Shown: positions 1,879 through 16,696 of the stretch, piece after piece
Position numbering within the stretch: position 1 is the stretch's first letter
How the letters are laid out: each line of letters opens with the position of its first letter
Assembly: GCA_021129615.1 (NCBI GenBank)
Contig: JAJOKY010000023.1
Location: forward strand, 1 to 24,779
DNA length: 24,779 nucleotides
From: Minisyncoccota bacterium
Lineage (GTDB): Bacteria > Patescibacteriota > Minisyncoccia > Minisyncoccales > CSSED10-335
Direction of reading: 5' to 3'
The notes under the pieces: generated by a model
What the model saw: only the letters and a program-made list of their open reading frames with translations
The model's database searches: none
What the model was told of the DNA's origin: nothing
Made by a program: the position numbers and the translations under genes

Positions 1879-2583
1879 TTATCCTACAAGCCTGATTTTA
1901 GAACGGATTGATTTTTCAACTGCATCAACTCCGCCTTCTTTCAAAGCTTTTTCGGAAAAAGTTTCGGTCTTTGGAGATTCAGCCCCAGAGGGTTGAACCA
2001 CATCAGCCCTAAACTCTTTACCCTCTCCTTCTTTGGGTTTTTCTTTGGGTTGAGTTTCCTTCTTCAAAGAAGAAACCCTTTTGTCCAACATATCTTTTAC
2101 TTGCTCTACAGTATCTTCAGCATCTATAGCATTTTCTACCAAAGCAAGCGGATTTTTCCGAAGAACTTCTTTTAAGGTTACATCTTTTTTAAGAACTTCC
2201 TGATATTCAGGATTATCCCAAACAAGATTACTAATAGCTAACCTTGCAACCATCTCCTCCTCTACTTCTTTAGGAGTAGATTCAGGTGGCAGCTCTTCAT
2301 CTATCCCTATTTCTCCGCTTCTTATCTTTTCAATCCTTTGCTCCAACCTCTCTCTTGTAATTCTTTCTATTCTCGCTTTTTTGTCGGCTTGAGATTGCAA
2401 ATTCTTCTGCTTTTCAAGCTCTTTTTTAAGGACATCAACCTTGCCCTCCAACTCTGCTACCTTTTTTTCTTCGGGGGAAGAAGTTGGTTCTTCCTTTGGT
2501 TTTTCCGAAGTAATTGCTTCCTTCTCCTTTGAGGCAGTAGCTTCCCCTTCTTTTGGAGTAGGAGTAGTGGCTTCATCAACCAT
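1879..2583 (-). CDS. Capsid scaffolding protein
   Basis: Glu/Lys-rich, coiled-coil-like, low-complexity N terminus; immediately upstream of the capsid gene. Confidence 0.7.
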   Translation of the reverse strand: MVDEATTPTPKEGEATASKEKEAITSEKPKEEPTSSPEEKKVAELEGKVDVLKKELEKQKNLQSQADKKARIERITRERLEQRIEKIRSGEIGIDEELPPESTPKEVEEEMVARLAISNLVWDNPEYQEVLKKDVTLKEVLRKNPLALVENAIDAEDTVEQVKDMLDKRVSSLKKETQPKEKPKEGEGKEFRADVVQPSGAESPKTETFSEKALKEGGVDAVEKSIRSKIRLVG

Positions 2584-12192: not shown

Positions 12193-13668
12193 TTATTTAT
12201 AAAAATTAGTTAGAGAAAACTTTTTAATTTTACTTGCCTTTAAATACTTTTCAACATACCAAGCTAACATTGCGAAAACCATCACCCAATCTTGTTTAAT
12301 TTTCCTATCTTCTAATTTATAAGAAGCTAACTGCTTTTCTAATTTTGGCAAGTAATAACTCTTTAATTTACCCATAGCAGATTCTTCACCAAAAGTCAAA
12401 CGTTTTCTAAGATTATTCCTTAATCGCAACTGCAGAAAAAACAAAGCATCTGATTTATTCCCCTGTCCAAAAATAATTGGAGAAAATTGTTTTAACATTT
12501 TTTTAAAAATCGTGCCCCCCATCTCTGTTACATCCATTACCATAGGAGCATCATTATAAGTCATCCGTTTAAAACTCGCCATAGCCATTAACTCAATCGG
12601 GTCTCCTCCCTGTTTAGAATAAGCATCTACCACTTCCACATTATTTAAATCCGTGACATCAGCTATAAAAATTACCGTCTCATCCCCTCCATCTGCTACA
12701 CCCCAATCAATTACTTCAACATATTTTCTATCAAGCTGACTATCAGTTGGTCCTTTTTTGTCATTCCATATCCCTTCTATAACATCAGGTGGAAACATTC
12801 TGTCAGACGAAGCTAAGAAAACACCTTTAATAACCTGAAGATACTTCATTGGCGATACTCTTTTTAATCTTTCAATAAATTCATATCTTTTACGTTCTGG
12901 AATAAAAATATTTTCTTGATAAAAACCCTCAACTAAATGCCACTCACCTTCTTTTTTCTCCTCCTGTGCTCGTTTAGCCGCAGTATAAAGATGATACCAA
13001 TACTGTTGAGATTTGCCCAATTCATCAGGAGTAGATACCAAAACAACCCAACCAGAATATTTAGCAGTTCTTGAAAAAATACGAGCACCAAGTTCTTCCT
13101 CAAGATGGTGTGATTGAACCGCCTCATCATAAGTAATAAGAGCAAATTGTTTCCCAGCCAAACCAGATGCCTTATCAGCTGCAGTAGACAAACACCAAAA
13201 AGAAGAATTATTTCTGAAATCTATCCTACCAAGAACTTCATTTTTTCCCTCCCAAAACCATTTAATTTTACAATCGTTAATATAACGCTTTCCTTCTATT
13301 TCCCAAGAAAATTGTGAACGCAAAATCTCTTCTACATAACGAAATGCTTCTGAAGACTGACGAGAAATCGGTGAAATGTTCAATGTTTCATATCTCGCTT
13401 TTTCTATTAACTCTGGTTTTCCATCTAACCCTTTTTTATAAAAATTAAACCAAATGTGAACTATCGCAATAGCAACAGTTTTCCCAACCTGATTAGCTGT
13501 TACCCATAAATTCTGTTTCGACCATTCAACAAAATCAACATTCTTTTTTCTACATTTACATAAAGATAATAATGCCCTTTTCTGAAAAGGATTAAGGGCA
13601 AGCCCTAAAATATTTTCAGCAAAAAAAATAGGGTCGCCTTCACCTAATAATAACAGAAGCTTGTCCAT
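12193..13668 (-). CDS. terL: Terminase large subunit (probable start ATG 13668)
   Basis: Walker A TANQVGKT, Walker B ITYDEA, coupling motif VSTP, nuclease IDWG...DETV and C-terminal DWVM. AAGGAG lies 6 nt before ATG 13668; the track start is 13713. Confidence 0.9.
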   Translation of the reverse strand: MDKLLLLLGEGDPIFFAENILGLALNPFQKRALLSLCKCRKKNVDFVEWSKQNLWVTANQVGKTVAIAIVHIWFNFYKKGLDGKPELIEKARYETLNISPISRQSSEAFRYVEEILRSQFSWEIEGKRYINDCKIKWFWEGKNEVLGRIDFRNNSSFWCLSTAADKASGLAGKQFALITYDEAVQSHHLEEELGARIFSRTAKYSGWVVLVSTPDELGKSQQYWYHLYTAAKRAQEEKKEGEWHLVEGFYQENIFIPERKRYEFIERLKRVSPMKYLQVIKGVFLASSDRMFPPDVIEGIWNDKKGPTDSQLDRKYVEVIDWGVADGGDETVIFIADVTDLNNVEVVDAYSKQGGDPIELMAMASFKRMTYNDAPMVMDVTEMGGTIFKKMLKQFSPIIFGQGNKSDALFFLQLRLRNNLRKRLTFGEESAMGKLKSYYLPKLEKQLASYKLEDRKIKQDWVMVFAMLAWYVEKYLKASKIKKFSLTNFYK

Positions 13669-14236
13669 CCTGTTCTCCTTCTCTAAGTTGTAAGATTCTA
13701 TCAAAACTGGCATTGACTTGTTTTCTTAATTCTTCAAATTTTTCTGGCGACATTTTTAAAAGTTGATTATATGGCAAAAGAGTTCTCACTGTCTCTAATT
13801 TTAATTTCCCTCTAGCTATTTCTGTTCTTTTAACCGCTTCTTCTGTGTTCCGAATAATTTGATAAAGTCGAGAAACCTCTTTAATGTCAACATTTTTATA
13901 CCTGCTCTTATGCTTCTCATAATCCTTTAAAATTCTATTAAGCATTAAAACTGTTCGCTTCCGATTTTGAATAAGCATCTTTTCAACTTTATCATCTGGT
14001 AACATATCTACCTCTTGTTTAATCAAAACACCTTTTTCTTCTTTTTTCCATCTTCTAATCCAGAACATAAAAAAAGCCCAATCTTTTCCACCACCAGCTC
14101 CTGTTTTTTTTCTAACATTAAAATACTTTGGCACAAGAAGTTCATCATAAATTTCTCTTGCCTTTTTAAATGCTCTATTCGCAAGCCAAATGTCTTTAAC
14201 TTCTTTTTCTTTTTTTTCAATATCTTTAACCGCCAT
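13640..14236 (-). CDS. Probable terminase small subunit
   Basis: 198 aa basic helical protein overlapping the TerL start. Assignment by synteny only. Confidence 0.55.
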   Translation of the reverse strand: MAVKDIEKKEKEVKDIWLANRAFKKAREIYDELLVPKYFNVRKKTGAGGGKDWAFFMFWIRRWKKEEKGVLIKQEVDMLPDDKVEKMLIQNRKRTVLMLNRILKDYEKHKSRYKNVDIKEVSRLYQIIRNTEEAVKRTEIARGKLKLETVRTLLPYNQLLKMSPEKFEELRKQVNASFDRILQLREGEQDGQASVIIR

Positions 14237-14245
14237 AACACTTTC

Positions 14246-14274
14246 TCTATAACAAATTATTTACAATTTGTCAA
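14246..14274 (-). promoter_or_regulatory. Sigma70-type leftward promoter for the terminase-portal operon
   Basis: TTGACA-17 nt-TATAGA with extended -10; ATG 14236 is 9 nt downstream of the -10. Confidence 0.75.
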
Positions 14275-14283
14275 TAGTTTATC

Positions 14284-14303
14284 TTGTCCACAACTTATTC
14301 ACA
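14284..14303 (+). promoter_or_regulatory. Two DnaA-box-like 9-mers between divergent promoters
   Basis: TTGTCCACA (14284-14292) and TTATTCACA (14295-14303), compared with consensus TTWTNCACA. Confidence 0.65.
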
Positions 14304-14313
14304 GAACTAAGAC

Positions 14314-14341
14314 TTGACAAACTTTTTGATTTGTCTATAAT
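14314..14341 (+). promoter_or_regulatory. Sigma70-type rightward promoter
   Basis: TTGACA-16 nt-TATAAT; no sizeable plus-strand ORF downstream. Confidence 0.7.
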
Positions 14342-14346
14342 AGAAA

Positions 14347-14493
14347 TCAGAGCTGACCTTTAGTTAGAGGTCAACAAGAATTTGTTGGTAAGGCTAAATG
14401 TCAGCTCTACCAACCCTATTATGACAACTTTAATTTTCTTTCAACAATTATTTTCACTGTTTTAAAACCAGGTTTTTTAGTTCCTGGTTTTTT
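14347..14493 (+). ncRNA. Candidate ~145 nt small RNA
   Basis: Follows a consensus promoter; AGAGCTGAC(14349)/GTCAGCTCT(14400) closes a rod-like hairpin; ends at a terminator-like hairpin. Confidence 0.5.
14464..14493 (+). terminator. Intrinsic terminator, possibly bidirectional
   Basis: AAAACCAGG-10 nt-CCTGGTTTTTT. Confidence 0.6.
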
Positions 14494-14561
14494 AATAAAA
14501 AAACCACCCTTAACGAGTGGTAAAAAACCTTTAACCATACCAAAGTTTTTATTTTAAATAT

Positions 14562-14590
14562 ATTATAGAACATTTAAGAAAACTTGTCAA
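14562..14590 (-). promoter_or_regulatory. Consensus leftward promoter
   Basis: TTGACA(14590-14585)-17 nt-TATAAT(14567-14562). Confidence 0.7.
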
Positions 14591-14593
14591 GGC

Positions 14594-14621
14594 TTGACAA
14601 AATAAATTATAAATATATTAT
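14594..14621 (+). promoter_or_regulatory. Rightward promoter back-to-back with the previous one
   Basis: TTGACA-16 nt-TATTAT; the two -35 elements form the inverted repeat TTGTCAAG-G-CTTGACAA. Confidence 0.5.
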
Positions 14622-14894
14622 AAATATTAACAAAGTAAAATAAGAGAAAAGAAGGGGGCTCTGTTTGGCGACTTTACATCCCCATAACCTCTAATAGTTA
14701 TTGGATGTGCTTTAGGGGGAGGGTTTGAATAAAAGTGGTAGTTATAGATATAACGCACCAAACCTATATCTCGGTTTATTAAAACCAAACTACTTATCCA
14801 ATCACCTATAAATGATAATATAATGGCGACCGACGGAAATAGACATTAAATTATTCTTTTCTCTTTTTTACCACATAAGGATTGTTATGAAAAC

Positions 14895-14919
14895 CTTTTA
14901 GGGAAGACCTCCCTAAAAG
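14895..14919. repeat. Perfect 10 bp inverted repeat
   Basis: CTTTTAGGGA-AGACC-TCCCTAAAAG. Confidence 0.8.
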
Positions 14920-15330
14920 TCGCCTTTGGCTCCCTCTGGAAATAGACAAAAAGAGACCCTAATTTAGGAGATAACATAATTAAGAAAGTTTGTCAAGTGT
15001 TATAGATTAATAAAGAGAAAAATAATAAAAAAAAATAGGAAAAAAAATAGAAAAGGGTAGAAATCTTAATTTTGGGGTTGGGGGGTGCATATAGAGTTTC
15101 ACAATTTCTAAAAAAAAACTACCCCTAAGTCAAATTGACAAAATGAAGAAGTTATGTTGAAATATTAAGTGTTTATATTAAAGGTTAATAAAAATATAAT
15201 TTTTAAAAAAGGAAATAAGGTTTAAGGTTTTGTTTGGTCCGTCCTAAAAATAAAATAATTTTTATAATCCATAAGATATAGTTTATTATATCTTTTTTTT
15301 TATTTAATAGGGGCAAAAAAGAATAAAAAG

Positions 15331-15350
15331 TTATTCACAGGCTGTCCACA
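15331..15350 (+). promoter_or_regulatory. Two DnaA-box-like 9-mers
   Basis: TTATTCACA (15331-15339) and CTGTCCACA (15342-15350), ending 10 nt before a -35. Confidence 0.6.
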
Positions 15351-15360
15351 GGTAGGGGGC

Positions 15361-15389
15361 TTGACAGGGTTTTTTGATGGGTGTATAAT
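15361..15389 (+). promoter_or_regulatory. Strong early promoter
   Basis: Perfect TTGACA-17 nt-TATAAT. Confidence 0.85.
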
Positions 15390-15399
15390 TAAAGCAGTT

Positions 15400-15407
15400 A
15401 AAGGTCG
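15400..15407 (+). promoter_or_regulatory. AAAGGTCG motif
   Basis: 38 nt upstream of ATG 15446. Confidence 0.6.
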
Positions 15408-15445
15408 GTTCATTAAAAAATTAAAAATTAAAAAGATAAAATAAA

Positions 15446-15643
15446 ATGACAAAAAAAGACTATATTTTATTTGCTGAAATGCTGAAACAAAACAGACAAG
15501 CAATTAAAGAAGCACAAAAAGAAGGACGAAAAATTACGCTTGAAGGATTGTCACTGGCTATTGAGCGAGATATAGCTGACATCTTCTTTAATGACAACCC
15601 CTGTTTTGATTATAGGAAGTTTAGAGAGTATATTGCTGATTAA
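15446..15643 (+). CDS. Early hypothetical protein (65 aa)
   Basis: First ORF after the early promoter; MTKKDYILFAEML. Confidence 0.8.
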   Translation: MTKKDYILFAEMLKQNRQAIKEAQKEGRKITLEGLSLAIERDIADIFFNDNPCFDYRKFREYIAD

Positions 15644-15646
15644 ATA

Positions 15647-15697
15647 ATAGCTCTTGATTTTACCCCTGAAATATCGGGGGTAAAGATGAGGAGCTAT
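15647..15697 (+). repeat. Inter-cassette hairpin H1
   Basis: ATAGCTC-TTGA-TTTTACCCC-TGAAATATCG-GGGGTAAAG-ATGAG-GAGCTAT. Confidence 0.85.
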
Positions 15698-15703
15698 AAA
15701 TTA

Positions 15704-15711
15704 AAAGGTCG
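15704..15711 (+). promoter_or_regulatory. AAAGGTCG motif
   Basis: 35 nt upstream of ATG 15747. Confidence 0.6.
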
Positions 15712-15746
15712 GGCTTCTTAATAAAAATTAAATAATAAACAATAAA

Positions 15747-16022
15747 ATGAAAAAAGGAATAATTAAAATAATCAAGCTTGGTTATTATCACCCCTCAAAT
15801 GCTAACTGGAATTACGGCATTCATTTAATAATTGATAAGACAGGAGCGAGGGCTTACAAGGAAACATTCGGAGGAGACAGCAGAATGATTGAAAAACTAA
15901 AAGGAAAAGGTATTGAGGTTGAAAGAATAACTGGAAATATCCCCTATGCTTGCTATAAGTGGCAGGATGTAAAAGATTTGCTTGATATTGAAAAATACGA
16001 AGGCAAAAATTGGGTTAGATAG
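15747..16022 (+). CDS. Early hypothetical protein (91 aa)
   Basis: Clean ORF with A-rich leader; its stop TAG lies inside hairpin H2. Confidence 0.8.
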   Translation: MKKGIIKIIKLGYYHPSNANWNYGIHLIIDKTGARAYKETFGGDSRMIEKLKGKGIEVERITGNIPYACYKWQDVKDLLDIEKYEGKNWVR

Positions 16023-16069
16023 CTTTTGACATAGTCCCTGAAACATCGGGGATTATGACGAGAAGCTAT
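16019..16069 (+). repeat. Inter-cassette hairpin H2
   Basis: ATAGCTT-TTGA-CATAGTCCC-TGAAACATCG-GGGATTATG-ACGAG-AAGCTAT. Confidence 0.85.
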
Positions 16070-16074
16070 AAAAT

Positions 16075-16082
16075 AAAGGTCG
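16075..16082 (+). promoter_or_regulatory. AAAGGTCG motif
   Basis: 38 nt upstream of ATG 16121. Confidence 0.6.
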
Positions 16083-16120
16083 GGGTTTCTCAATAAATAA
16101 TTAAAAGATAATAAAAAACT

Positions 16121-16696
16121 ATGAGCTATGAAATTGTTAAAGCTGTTAAAATAGAAAATGACAGAGTGATGATAAAGGGAGCGAGTAACAATGTATATCC
16201 TAAAAATTACGAATATTGGGAGTGTCATCCGCTAACAAAAACATTGCGAGAAAAAGGAAAAGAGCAAGCTGAAATTGATATTTTAAAAGCGTATGAAGAG
16301 GGCAATTTTCAAGCAGGGACAGAAAATAAATATACCAGAGCATTAAAGATTCTACGATATTTGTCAGAATATGAAAGGTTTGATTGGAGGAATAAATACA
16401 AAGGAGATGAAGACAATGACAAGATAATAGAGCAAAGGCGGGAAAGCAAGGAATTTGATGAGTTGTTGCTGAAGGTATTGAATACAAAACTACCAAAGCA
16501 AAAATTTGTCATCACAAAGAAAGTAGGAAATGATGAAGAAAAACAAGTTATCTATATGAAATATAGGAAAAATGCTGGTTATTGTAAATGGTATACTGAT
16601 ATAAAAAAGGCAAAAAAGTTTGATTTTTTAGAGGAAGCAGAGAGCATAAAAAAATACTTTACGAATAGCGAAAACTGGGAAATTATTAGAGTATAG
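16121..16696 (+). CDS. Early hypothetical protein (191 aa)
   Basis: Clean ORF; its stop TAG lies inside hairpin H3. Confidence 0.8.
   Translation: MSYEIVKAVKIENDRVMIKGASNNVYPKNYEYWECHPLTKTLREKGKEQAEIDILKAYEEGNFQAGTENKYTRALKILRYLSEYERFDWRNKYKGDEDNDKIIEQRRESKEFDELLLKVLNTKLPKQKFVITKKVGNDEEKQVIYMKYRKNAGYCKWYTDIKKAKKFDFLEEAESIKKYFTNSENWEIIRV

What the first reader, a model, noticed from the sequence alone, without database searches (positions are those of the whole stretch)
14314..14493. Stand-alone small RNA with alternative folds next to the terminase promoter
Seen: consensus promoter, ~145 nt with no ORF, then a terminator. Fold A is a rod (AGAGCTGAC/GTCAGCTCT, TTTAG/CTAAA, CAACAA/TTGTTG). Fold B uses mutually exclusive pairings GACCT(14355)/AGGTC(14368) and GTTGGTA(14384)/TACCAAC(14408). 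A perfect opposing promoter (14590-14562) would transcribe its antisense. Inference: a regulatory sRNA or switch controlling late gene expression, or a packaging-associated RNA given its position by the terminase genes.
Basis: partly seen in the sequence, partly recalled or inferred. Interest (0 to 1): 0.6.

Follow-up and report, generated by a model that had tools for sequence, protein, structure and literature searches.

The report
Conserved phage micro-mRNA with 5' rod
Next to the terminase genes of this small phage lies a real, self-contained transcription unit of about 150 nt, kept in the same place in about twenty related uncultivated phages, which is a rod-shaped RNA hairpin followed by a tiny 14-codon reading frame rather than an ORF-free RNA switch; its function is unknown.

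Summary

Three points need correction.
- The unit is not ORF-free. An accessible ATG at 14421 opens a 14-codon frame that ends at the foot of the terminator.
- "Fold B" is a minor suboptimal structure (0.2% of the ensemble) and is not conserved in relatives.
- The opposing promoter has its own terminator (14521-14503), so it gives antisense RNA only by read-through.

About 17-19 related phage contigs (TerL 57-75% identical) carry the same unit at the same place. It runs: promoter back-to-back with the terS promoter, rod starting at the first transcribed bases, a G-U-A-R-G bulge on the rod's 3' strand, a mini-ORF whose stop codon lies in the terminator loop, and a terminator. Rod sequences differ but stay paired: 41 G.U against 2 A.C mismatches, with covariation above all shuffles.

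Rfam has no match. A covariance model built from the relatives does not find the window's rod, so the window belongs by position and architecture only.

My reading is a structured micro-mRNA (a dual-function type of small RNA) expressed early. There is no evidence for a role in packaging or in late-gene control. The scan's notes showed no earlier finding of this unit on other DNA.

The parts
14246..14274 (-). terS (late operon) promoter, back-to-back with the RNA-1 promoter: TTGACA (14274-14269), 17-nt spacer, TATAGA (14251-14246). The terS ATG is at 14236, so the mRNA is almost leaderless.
Evidence: Read.
14284..14303 (+). Two DnaA-box-like 9-mers (14284-14292 and 14295-14303). The second ends 10 nt before the -35 hexamer.
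   Evidence: In one search, exact TTWTNCACA boxes lie within about 55 nt upstream of the -35 in 13 of the 20 contigs listed there (19 distinct), window included.
14314..14341 (+). RNA-1 promoter, TTGACA-16-TATAAT (12/12).
   Evidence: A counterpart with an almost invariant TTGACA stands at the same place in all relatives.
14349..14408 (+). 5'-terminal rod hairpin (three helices). It starts 7 nt after the -10 hexamer, that is, at about the first transcribed base.
   Evidence: z -5.2. Relatives have rods of 36-108 nt that start 5-8 nt after the -10 in 15 of the 17 rods with set boundaries.
14388..14392 (+). GUAAG, the window's version of the conserved G-U-A-R-G purine bulge on the 3' strand of the rod.
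   Evidence: MAFFT alignment A3 has invariant columns G, T, A, G there. GTARG lies 10-17 nt from the rod's end in 10 rods, with AUAGG or UUAGG variants in three more.
14409..14420 (+). Unpaired A/U-rich linker before the start codon, without a Shine-Dalgarno sequence, as at the other genes of this phage.
   Evidence: Mean unpaired probability is 0.91 over -12..+9 around the ATG.
14421..14465 (+). Mini-ORF of 14 codons plus TAA. A second in-frame stop, TAG 14478-14480, lies in the terminator loop.
14464..14493 (+). Intrinsic terminator: a 9-bp stem, a 10-nt U-rich loop and six U.
   Evidence: -10.8 kcal/mol, z -3.2.
14497..14521 (-). Terminator of the convergent short unit: stem-loop 14521-14503, then seven U.
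   Evidence: -10.0 kcal/mol, z -5.4.
14562..14590 (-). Opposing promoter TTGACA-17-TATAAT (12/12), which drives an RNA of about 60 nt that ends at 14497-14503.

Best explanation
This is an autonomous small gene, which I call RNA-1. Its strong promoter suggests early expression. Host sigma-70 RNA polymerase starts at about 14348 and stops at about 14493-14497, giving a transcript of about 146-150 nt.

The transcript has two modules.
1. Its first 60 nt fold into a rod hairpin with a conserved purine bulge (G-U-A-R-G) on the 3' strand.
2. Twelve nt after the rod, an exposed, Shine-Dalgarno-less AUG opens a 14-codon frame that runs to the foot of the terminator.

It is therefore a structured micro-mRNA of the 'dual-function small RNA' type, not an ORF-free riboswitch-like RNA.

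Shown here: the anatomy; its conservation by position in related phages; selection for pairing on the transcribed strand; selection for an open frame with an in-frame stop before the RNA's 3' end.

Inferred:
- The rod protects the 5' end.
- The rod acts as an operator or processing site, for host RNase III or an RNA-binding protein at the bulge, that sets how far the adjacent mini-ORF is translated.
- The mini-ORF is really translated.
- Because the peptides are not conserved, either the act of translation or a fast-evolving micropeptide is what matters.

The target and the biological role remain unknown.
For: Anatomy in the window.

Synteny: a consensus-like promoter divergent from terS, a 5' rod and a terminator are found in L003, L005, L007-L009, L011-L013, L015, L016, L022-L024, L029, L030, L034, L037, L038 and L050.

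RNA-level selection:
- Rod z-scores are at or below -3.3 (down to -7.2) in 12 of the 16 rods scored (15 distinct sequences).
- There are 331 Watson-Crick pairs, 41 G.U pairs and only 2 A.C mismatches, which is strand-specific.
- On a MAFFT alignment not fitted to the structure, the basal stem has 84.6% of cells paired against 74.0% in shuffles (0 of 500 as high).
- Ten of its 12 pairs change on both sides, and slid controls fall to 50-60% paired.

Bulge motif: invariant columns, positions.

Mini-ORF:
- Thirteen contigs, window included, have an ATG-ORF that reaches the terminator; the product of the shuffle probabilities is 9e-8. L004 adds a fourteenth.
- The stop lies in the terminator loop in 11 of these 14 ORFs, where one in three is expected.
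- Only 1 of 23 ORF-terminator pairs in the host bin has its stop in the loop.
- The start region is accessible.
- The start context matches the phage's own SD-less genes, five of which also begin ATGAC. The host bin also shows no SD enrichment.

Modularity: L004 keeps the ORF and terminator without a rod; L029 and L034 keep the rod and terminator without an ORF.

RNase III is present in the host bin and in 29 of its 30 searched relatives (30 of 31 genomes in all).
Against: - There are no transcript or ribosome data.
- The peptides are not conserved in sequence, hydropathy (GRAVY -1.7 to +1.4) or charge, so a protein function is doubtful.
- Four relatives lack the ORF.
- A covariance model built from nine relatives does not find the window's rod. 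The window's bulge reads GUAAG rather than GUAGG. The window's rod is therefore homologous by position and architecture only.
- No nucleotide similarity to any relative survives in the 1.2-kb region, apart from one 29-nt match elsewhere in it.
- The partner of the bulge is unidentified.
- The relatives are phylogenetically related, so the combined probabilities overstate independence.
Confidence: 0.5

Rival explanations
1. A purely non-coding, trans-acting small RNA. The rod and its purine bulge, or the single-stranded linker, bind a protein or base-pair with a target mRNA. The mini-ORF is incidental or only stabilises the RNA.
For: L029 and L034 keep the rod and terminator without any ORF. 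The rod and bulge are the parts under clear RNA-level selection. The peptides are not conserved.
Against: The open frame with an in-frame stop before the 3' end is kept far more often than chance allows. L004 keeps the ORF without the rod. No supported target was found: the duplex with the convergent RNA is no better than about 5% of shuffles.
Confidence: 0.2
2. A translation-gated terminator. A ribosome that reaches the stop codon at or in the terminator hairpin masks its 5' arm. When the mini-ORF is translated in step with transcription, the polymerase reads through into the convergent unit (RNA-2 in relatives) and on towards the early region. The rod, or a factor bound to it, sets ribosome loading.
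For: The stop lies in the terminator loop in 11 of 14 ORFs, and directly at the stem in the window. This is unusual for the host bin, where it happens in 1 of 23 pairs and the median distance from stop to hairpin is 26 nt. [quoted passage not shown] The rod ends 8-14 nt before the AUG in most members.
Against: A simpler reason exists: an ORF on a terminated RNA must stop before the 3' end, and the U/A-rich loop is the last place where it can. No conserved antiterminator pairing was found. Downstream units have their own consensus promoters. It is unknown whether transcription and translation are coupled in this host.
Confidence: 0.13
3. A type I toxin-antitoxin-like pair: a small hydrophobic peptide mRNA with a structured 5' end, plus a convergent small RNA that shares or abuts its terminator (as in par/Fst or txpA/RatA; this comparison is from my own knowledge).
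For: The window peptide is strongly hydrophobic (GRAVY +1.41). A convergent small unit abuts it. In relatives the two convergent units share one bidirectional terminator.
Against: Most homologous peptides are hydrophilic and basic. Fourteen residues are too few to span a membrane. In the window the two RNAs do not overlap. In relatives the convergent RNA-2 is far more conserved than the ORF it would control.
Confidence: 0.05
4. Part of the replication origin. The transcript from a promoter flanked by DnaA boxes primes or activates replication, and the rod is a DNA or R-loop structure.
For: DnaA-box-like 9-mers lie upstream of the -35 in the window and 12 relative contigs. Cumulative GC skew turns at about 14500-15000. 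An A/T-rich stretch follows the rod.
Against: G.U pairs outnumber A.C mismatches 41 to 2, so the structure is read on one RNA strand and is not a DNA cruciform. The transcript ends at a good terminator. The skew turn coincides with the switch of gene orientation.
Confidence: 0.06
5. A chance hairpin between a promoter-like and a terminator-like site, with no function; or a pRNA-like packaging RNA.
For: Promoter-like sites are frequent in A/T-rich DNA: 22 found against 12.5 expected in 13500-16500. The unit lies next to the terminase genes.
Against: The whole architecture recurs at the syntenic place in relatives whose sequences are otherwise unalignable. There is no Rfam match of any kind, pRNA included. 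The phage has a conventional TerS and TerL.
Confidence: 0.04

Closest known systems
Dual-function small RNAs / small mRNAs (SgrS-SgrT, RNAIII-hld, SR1-SR1P; reviewed in PMC10339803, which I listed but did not read in full)
   Same: A transcript with its own promoter and intrinsic terminator, 100-250 nt long, with a conserved RNA structure and a very short ORF on the same molecule.
   Different: No base-pairing target is known. The peptide is shorter (14 aa; 12-33 aa in most relatives, with a 42-aa variant in L015) and is not conserved. The structured module sits at the extreme 5' end. There is no sequence relation to any Rfam family.
RNase III processing hairpins in phage early leaders (T7 R0.3/R1.1, lambda N leader); from my own knowledge
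   Same: An irregular hairpin of about 20 bp or more with an internal loop or bulge, placed between an early promoter and a start codon. The host bin has RNase III.
   Different: Here the hairpin begins at the first transcribed base and precedes only a mini-ORF. Cleavage is untested. I could not compare the loop sequence with T7 sites using the tools.
Convergent small-RNA pairs that share a bidirectional terminator (par RNA I/RNA II of pAD1, txpA/RatA); from my own knowledge
   Same: In relatives, RNA-1 and a convergent RNA-2 end at one shared hairpin with a U-rich, conserved loop.
   Different: In the window the two units have separate terminators and do not overlap. The peptides are mostly hydrophilic.
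phi29 pRNA (packaging RNA)
   Same: A small structured phage RNA encoded near packaging genes.
   Different: There is no Rfam match of any kind, pRNA included. The phage uses TerS, TerL and an SPP1-type portal. No pair of complementary loops for ring formation was seen.

Membership tests
Any Rfam 15 family | Score at or above the family's gathering threshold | tested here: not met
   No matches in the window. Only chance-level matches with E of at least 1.3 in 14200-15500. In 14 related loci the only hit is a tRNA in L025.
RNA-1 family of related phages (defined here) | Syntenic place: a consensus-like promoter back-to-back with the terS promoter | tested here: met
RNA-1 family of related phages (defined here) | Stable rod hairpin that begins at about +1 of the transcript | tested here: met
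   The window's rod starts 7 nt after the -10; 15 of the 17 rods with set boundaries start at 5-8 nt.
RNA-1 family of related phages (defined here) | G-U-A-R-G bulge on the 3' strand next to the basal stem | tested here: met
   The window has GUAAG at 14388-14392, aligned with GUAGG of eight relatives. It is a variant, with A for G.
RNA-1 family of related phages (defined here) | Mini-ORF after the rod with an in-frame stop at or in the terminator hairpin | tested here: met
RNA-1 family of related phages (defined here) | Detectable by a covariance model built from the other members | tested here: not met
   Model R1 (nine relatives) scores L009 at 1.3e-07, L050 at 6.2e-06 and L011 at 0.088. 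In the window it gives nothing at 14349-14408; the best hit there has E above 1. The model carries mostly the relatives' GGAGG-type stem sequence.
Riboswitch-like / alternative-fold switch | Two mutually exclusive folds of similar stability, both conserved | tested here: not met
   Fold B is 3.8 kcal/mol above the minimum free energy and holds 0.2% of the ensemble. It has no counterpart in relatives.
Leader-peptide transcription attenuator | Short ORF before a terminator, an alternative antiterminator helix, and a regulated gene downstream on the same strand | tested here: inconclusive
   The ORF and terminator are present. No conserved antiterminator was found. The next elements are a convergent unit and promoters of their own.
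Type I toxin-antitoxin | Conserved hydrophobic toxin peptide and an overlapping antisense RNA | tested here: not met
   Hydropathy is not conserved, and there is no overlap in the window.
5S rRNA loop E mimic (bL25 site) | Symmetric internal loop with the two loop E strands, flanked by helices | tested here: not met
   5S rRNAs of seven related genomes have ..GATGATAG.. and ..GAAAGTAGGTAG... Only the hexamer AGUAGG is shared. The 5' side of the rod loop varies from 0 to 8 nt. No 5S match appears.
CsrA/Rsm sponge RNA | Several GGA motifs in loops, and CsrA in the host | tested here: not met
   GGA is not kept in all bulges. CsrA was found in 1 of 31 genomes searched.
T7-type RNase III processing signal | Irregular hairpin with an internal loop that is cleaved by host RNase III | not testable with these tools
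   The shape fits, and RNase III is present in G000 and in 29 of the 30 relatives searched (30 of 31 genomes). Cleavage needs an experiment.

The most novel reading that the evidence does not exclude
RNA-1 and the convergent small RNA form a translation-sensing switch in the control region of phages of ultra-small bacteria. A factor bound at the conserved purine bulge of the 5' rod sets ribosome loading on the mini-ORF. Ribosomes that reach the stop codon inside the shared bidirectional terminator melt it, so read-through transcription silences the convergent RNA and changes the early programme. The rod with its G-U-A-R-G bulge would then be a new protein-binding RNA operator family.
Probability: 0.1. 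Interest if true: 0.75.

Novelty: new member of a known kind. Interest (0 to 1): 0.45.

Why it matters
Phages of ultra-small-genome bacteria are known only from metagenomes, and their regulation is unexplored. The host bin is bacterial, and its relatives have genomes of 0.3-1.0 Mb.

This unit is a conserved, sharply delimited small gene that ordinary annotation misses. It is a candidate new RNA family, and a micro-ORF sits on the same transcript. It lies in a 1.2-kb non-coding control region packed with consensus promoters, DnaA-box-like sites and convergent small RNAs.

It gives a concrete, testable handle on early regulation in these phages: a 150-nt RNA, one bulge motif and one start codon. 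It also shows that 'ORF-free' small RNAs in hosts that rarely use Shine-Dalgarno sequences should be checked for tiny frames.

Tried and rejected
- **Similarity to known phages.** blastn of 14200-15500 against the GenBank phage collection gave no match.
- **Nucleotide conservation in relatives.** No part of the finding aligns. The only hit is a 29-nt match at 15110-15138.
- **Consensus fold on MAFFT alignments.** RNAalifold on the alignment that includes the window gave no pairs, because the apical parts differ in length. A nine-sequence alignment without the window worked.
- **Covariance model R1.** It finds near-duplicates of its seeds and weakly L011. It misses the window, L016, L030, L024 and L005/L038. 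I did not use it on host genomes.
- **Home-made descriptor (stem of 8 bp or more plus GTARG) over the whole bin.** It gave 35 hits against 34-53 in shuffles, so there is no enrichment, and it misses the window's own rod.
- **Trans pairing with the convergent RNA.** No better than about 5% of shuffles.
- **5S loop E mimic and CsrA sponge.** Rejected.
- **Host rRNA and DnaA.** Not found in the 73%-complete bin.

Full report
**Context**

The window is the whole contig C1 of a 307-kb, 73%-complete bin. The bin is bacterial: it has a sigma-70 hit and no TBP. Its relatives have genomes of 0.3-1.0 Mb.

The contig looks like a small phage. The minus strand carries an SU10-type major capsid protein, an SPP1-type portal, TerL and a putative TerS. 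An array of small early genes lies on the plus strand from 15446.

Between terS (ATG at 14236) and the first early gene lies a 1.2-kb stretch without ORFs of 60 codons or more. It holds four near-perfect sigma-70 promoters. The finding is the leftmost unit of this stretch.

**Check of the observation**

All named sequence elements are there.
- The promoter at 14314-14341 matches 12 of 12.
- Fold A is the minimum-free-energy and centroid structure of 14348-14425 (-25.8 kcal/mol, z -3.7).
- The rod alone has z -5.2.
- The terminator hairpin (14464-14472 with 14483-14491) folds at -10.8 kcal/mol and is followed by six U.
- The fold B helices exist, but the best structure that contains them is -22.0 kcal/mol. 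Their pairs have probability 0.002, against 0.997 for the basal stem.
- The opposing promoter 14590-14562 is also 12 of 12. It is followed at 14521-14503 by its own hairpin and seven U. It therefore defines a separate convergent RNA of about 60 nt and gives antisense RNA of the finding only by read-through.
- The unit is not ORF-free. ATG 14421 opens a 14-codon frame (MTTLIFFQQLFSLF) that ends at TAA 14463-14465, at the foot of the terminator. A second in-frame stop lies in the terminator loop.

**Relatives**

TerL-based searches brought 50 loci from IMG/VR, JGI metagenomes and GTDB genomes, at 35-76% amino-acid identity. The members discussed here lie at 57-75%. The non-coding region does not align at the nucleotide level.

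Read in the window's orientation, about 17-19 distinct relatives nonetheless show the same order of elements:
- the terS promoter;
- DnaA-box-like 9-mers (exact TTWTNCACA in 13 of the 20 contigs listed, window included);
- a promoter with a nearly invariant TTGACA;
- a rod hairpin that begins 5-8 nt after the -10 in 15 of the 17 rods with set boundaries;
- a short linker;
- a terminator.

**Is the rod selected as RNA?**

- Twelve of the 16 rods scored (15 distinct sequences) have z at or below -3.3, down to -7.2.
- Their predicted pairs comprise 331 Watson-Crick pairs, 41 G.U pairs and only 2 A.C single mismatches. A DNA cruciform would not show this asymmetry, so the structure is read on the transcribed strand.
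- On a MAFFT alignment of nine relatives (not fitted to any structure), the 12-pair basal stem has 84.6% of cells paired against 74.0% in shuffles (0 of 500 as high).
- Ten of its pairs change on both sides. Every slid control falls to 50-60% paired.
- The only conserved sequence in the rod is a purine bulge on the 3' strand next to the basal stem, G-U-A-R-G. It is GUAGG in most members and GUAAG in the window (14388-14392). Its positions are listed.

A covariance model built from the nine relatives recovers near-duplicates of its seeds and weakly L011. It does not score the window's rod. I therefore call the window a member by position and architecture, not by detectable sequence homology.

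**The mini-ORF**

- In 13 contigs, window included, an ATG shortly after the rod opens a frame that reaches the terminator. The context is mostly ..TATGAC.., identical over 8-9 nt in the window, L007, L011 and L013.
- The product of the per-sequence probabilities of staying open in shuffles is 9e-8. This overstates independence but is far from chance.
- L004 adds a fourteenth ORF. The stop codon lies in the terminator loop in 11 of the 14, where one in three is expected.
- In the host bin, only 1 of 23 ORF-terminator pairs is built like this.
- The plainest reading is this: a frame on an RNA that ends a few bases after the hairpin must stop before that end, and the loop is the last A/U-rich place. 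That in turn argues that the RNA really ends there and really is translated.
- The start region is unpaired (0.91 in the window).
- The start has no Shine-Dalgarno sequence, like every other gene on the contig, and five of those genes also start ATGAC. The host bin shows no SD enrichment either.
- The peptides are not conserved in hydropathy or charge.
- The two modules can occur alone. L004 has the ORF and terminator without a rod. L029 and L034 have the rod and terminator without an ORF.

**What it most likely is**

It is a structured micro-mRNA. The anatomy, the synteny, RNA-level selection on the rod and selection on the frame are shown. Everything about function is inferred.

I favour this picture: the rod shields the 5' end and serves as an operator or processing site next to the start codon. 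The rod ends 8-14 nt before the AUG in most members. RNase III is present in the bin and in 29 of the 30 relatives searched.

A translation-gated terminator is an attractive extension, because a ribosome at the stop would cover the 5' arm (general principle in PMC7858274). It is not needed to explain the data.

**Rejected leads**
- A pRNA-like packaging role, an origin primer and a type I toxin have little or no support (see rivals).
- A 5S loop E mimic shares only the hexamer AGUAGG with real 5S rRNAs of related genomes.
- CsrA was found in only 1 of the 31 genomes searched, so a CsrA sponge is unlikely.
- Fold B is not conserved.
- No Rfam family matches.

**Limits**
- No expression data exist.
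- Two GTDB records that hold relatives are labelled as archaeal MAGs. The bacterial promoters, intrinsic terminators and the LysM/endolysin-like gene make mis-binning the likely reason.

Noticed in passing
L003:5050-5200 and L004:2960-3110 (also L015, L024, L034, L037/L050, L043): Most relatives carry a second, convergent small unit ('RNA-2', about 170 nt) that ends at the same bidirectional terminator as RNA-1. It is conserved in sequence, with a core like GCAGGAGTTAAATCYTGAC in the window's orientation, and shows compensatory changes between L003 and L004. A frameshift between these two argues against coding. It has no Rfam match and is absent from the window.
   Followed up: partly
window 14497-14590 (- strand): In place of RNA-2 the window has a convergent unit of about 60 nt, with a 12/12 promoter and its own terminator. 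It has no in-frame stop before its 3' end.
   Followed up: partly
window 14594-15360: A further near-consensus rightward promoter (14594-14621, 11/12) sits back-to-back with the opposing one and opens about 750 nt without long ORFs. A G-rich hairpin region around 15072-15129 is the only part of the 1.2-kb region with nucleotide similarity to relatives (15110-15138 against L007, 86% over 29 nt).
   Followed up: no
window 14284-14303; relatives: One to three exact DnaA-box 9-mers (often TTATCCACA in tandem) lie between the terS promoter and the RNA-1 promoter in the window and 12 relative contigs. The pair of divergent promoters may therefore be under DnaA control.
   Followed up: partly
window 14236-14274 (- strand): The terS mRNA would be almost leaderless (about 3-5 nt). 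None of the 33 genes on the contig has a Shine-Dalgarno sequence, and the host bin shows no enrichment either.
   Followed up: partly
L043/L044, about 550-650 nt upstream of TerL: At the RNA-1 position these more distant relatives have a short 5' hairpin followed by a sequence that looks like the T-arm and acceptor end of a tRNA. ARAGORN and Rfam call nothing there.
   Followed up: no
L025:1157-1233: A tRNA-Ile gene lies in the equivalent non-coding region of this relative.
   Followed up: no
L027, region upstream of terS: A long array of short tandem repeats, which could be iterons, fills the equivalent region in this 59%-identical relative.
   Followed up: no
L050 and L051: The only GTDB genomes that hold relatives of this phage are MAGs labelled Woesearchaeota and Methanomicrobia. 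The phage has bacterial promoters, terminators and a LysM/endolysin-like gene, so these are probably binning errors.
   Followed up: no
window 2473-2527: The best hit of model R1 in the window (E 0.08, found on both strands) is a hairpin inside the coding region of the minus-strand gene 1879-2583. It is probably chance.
   Followed up: no
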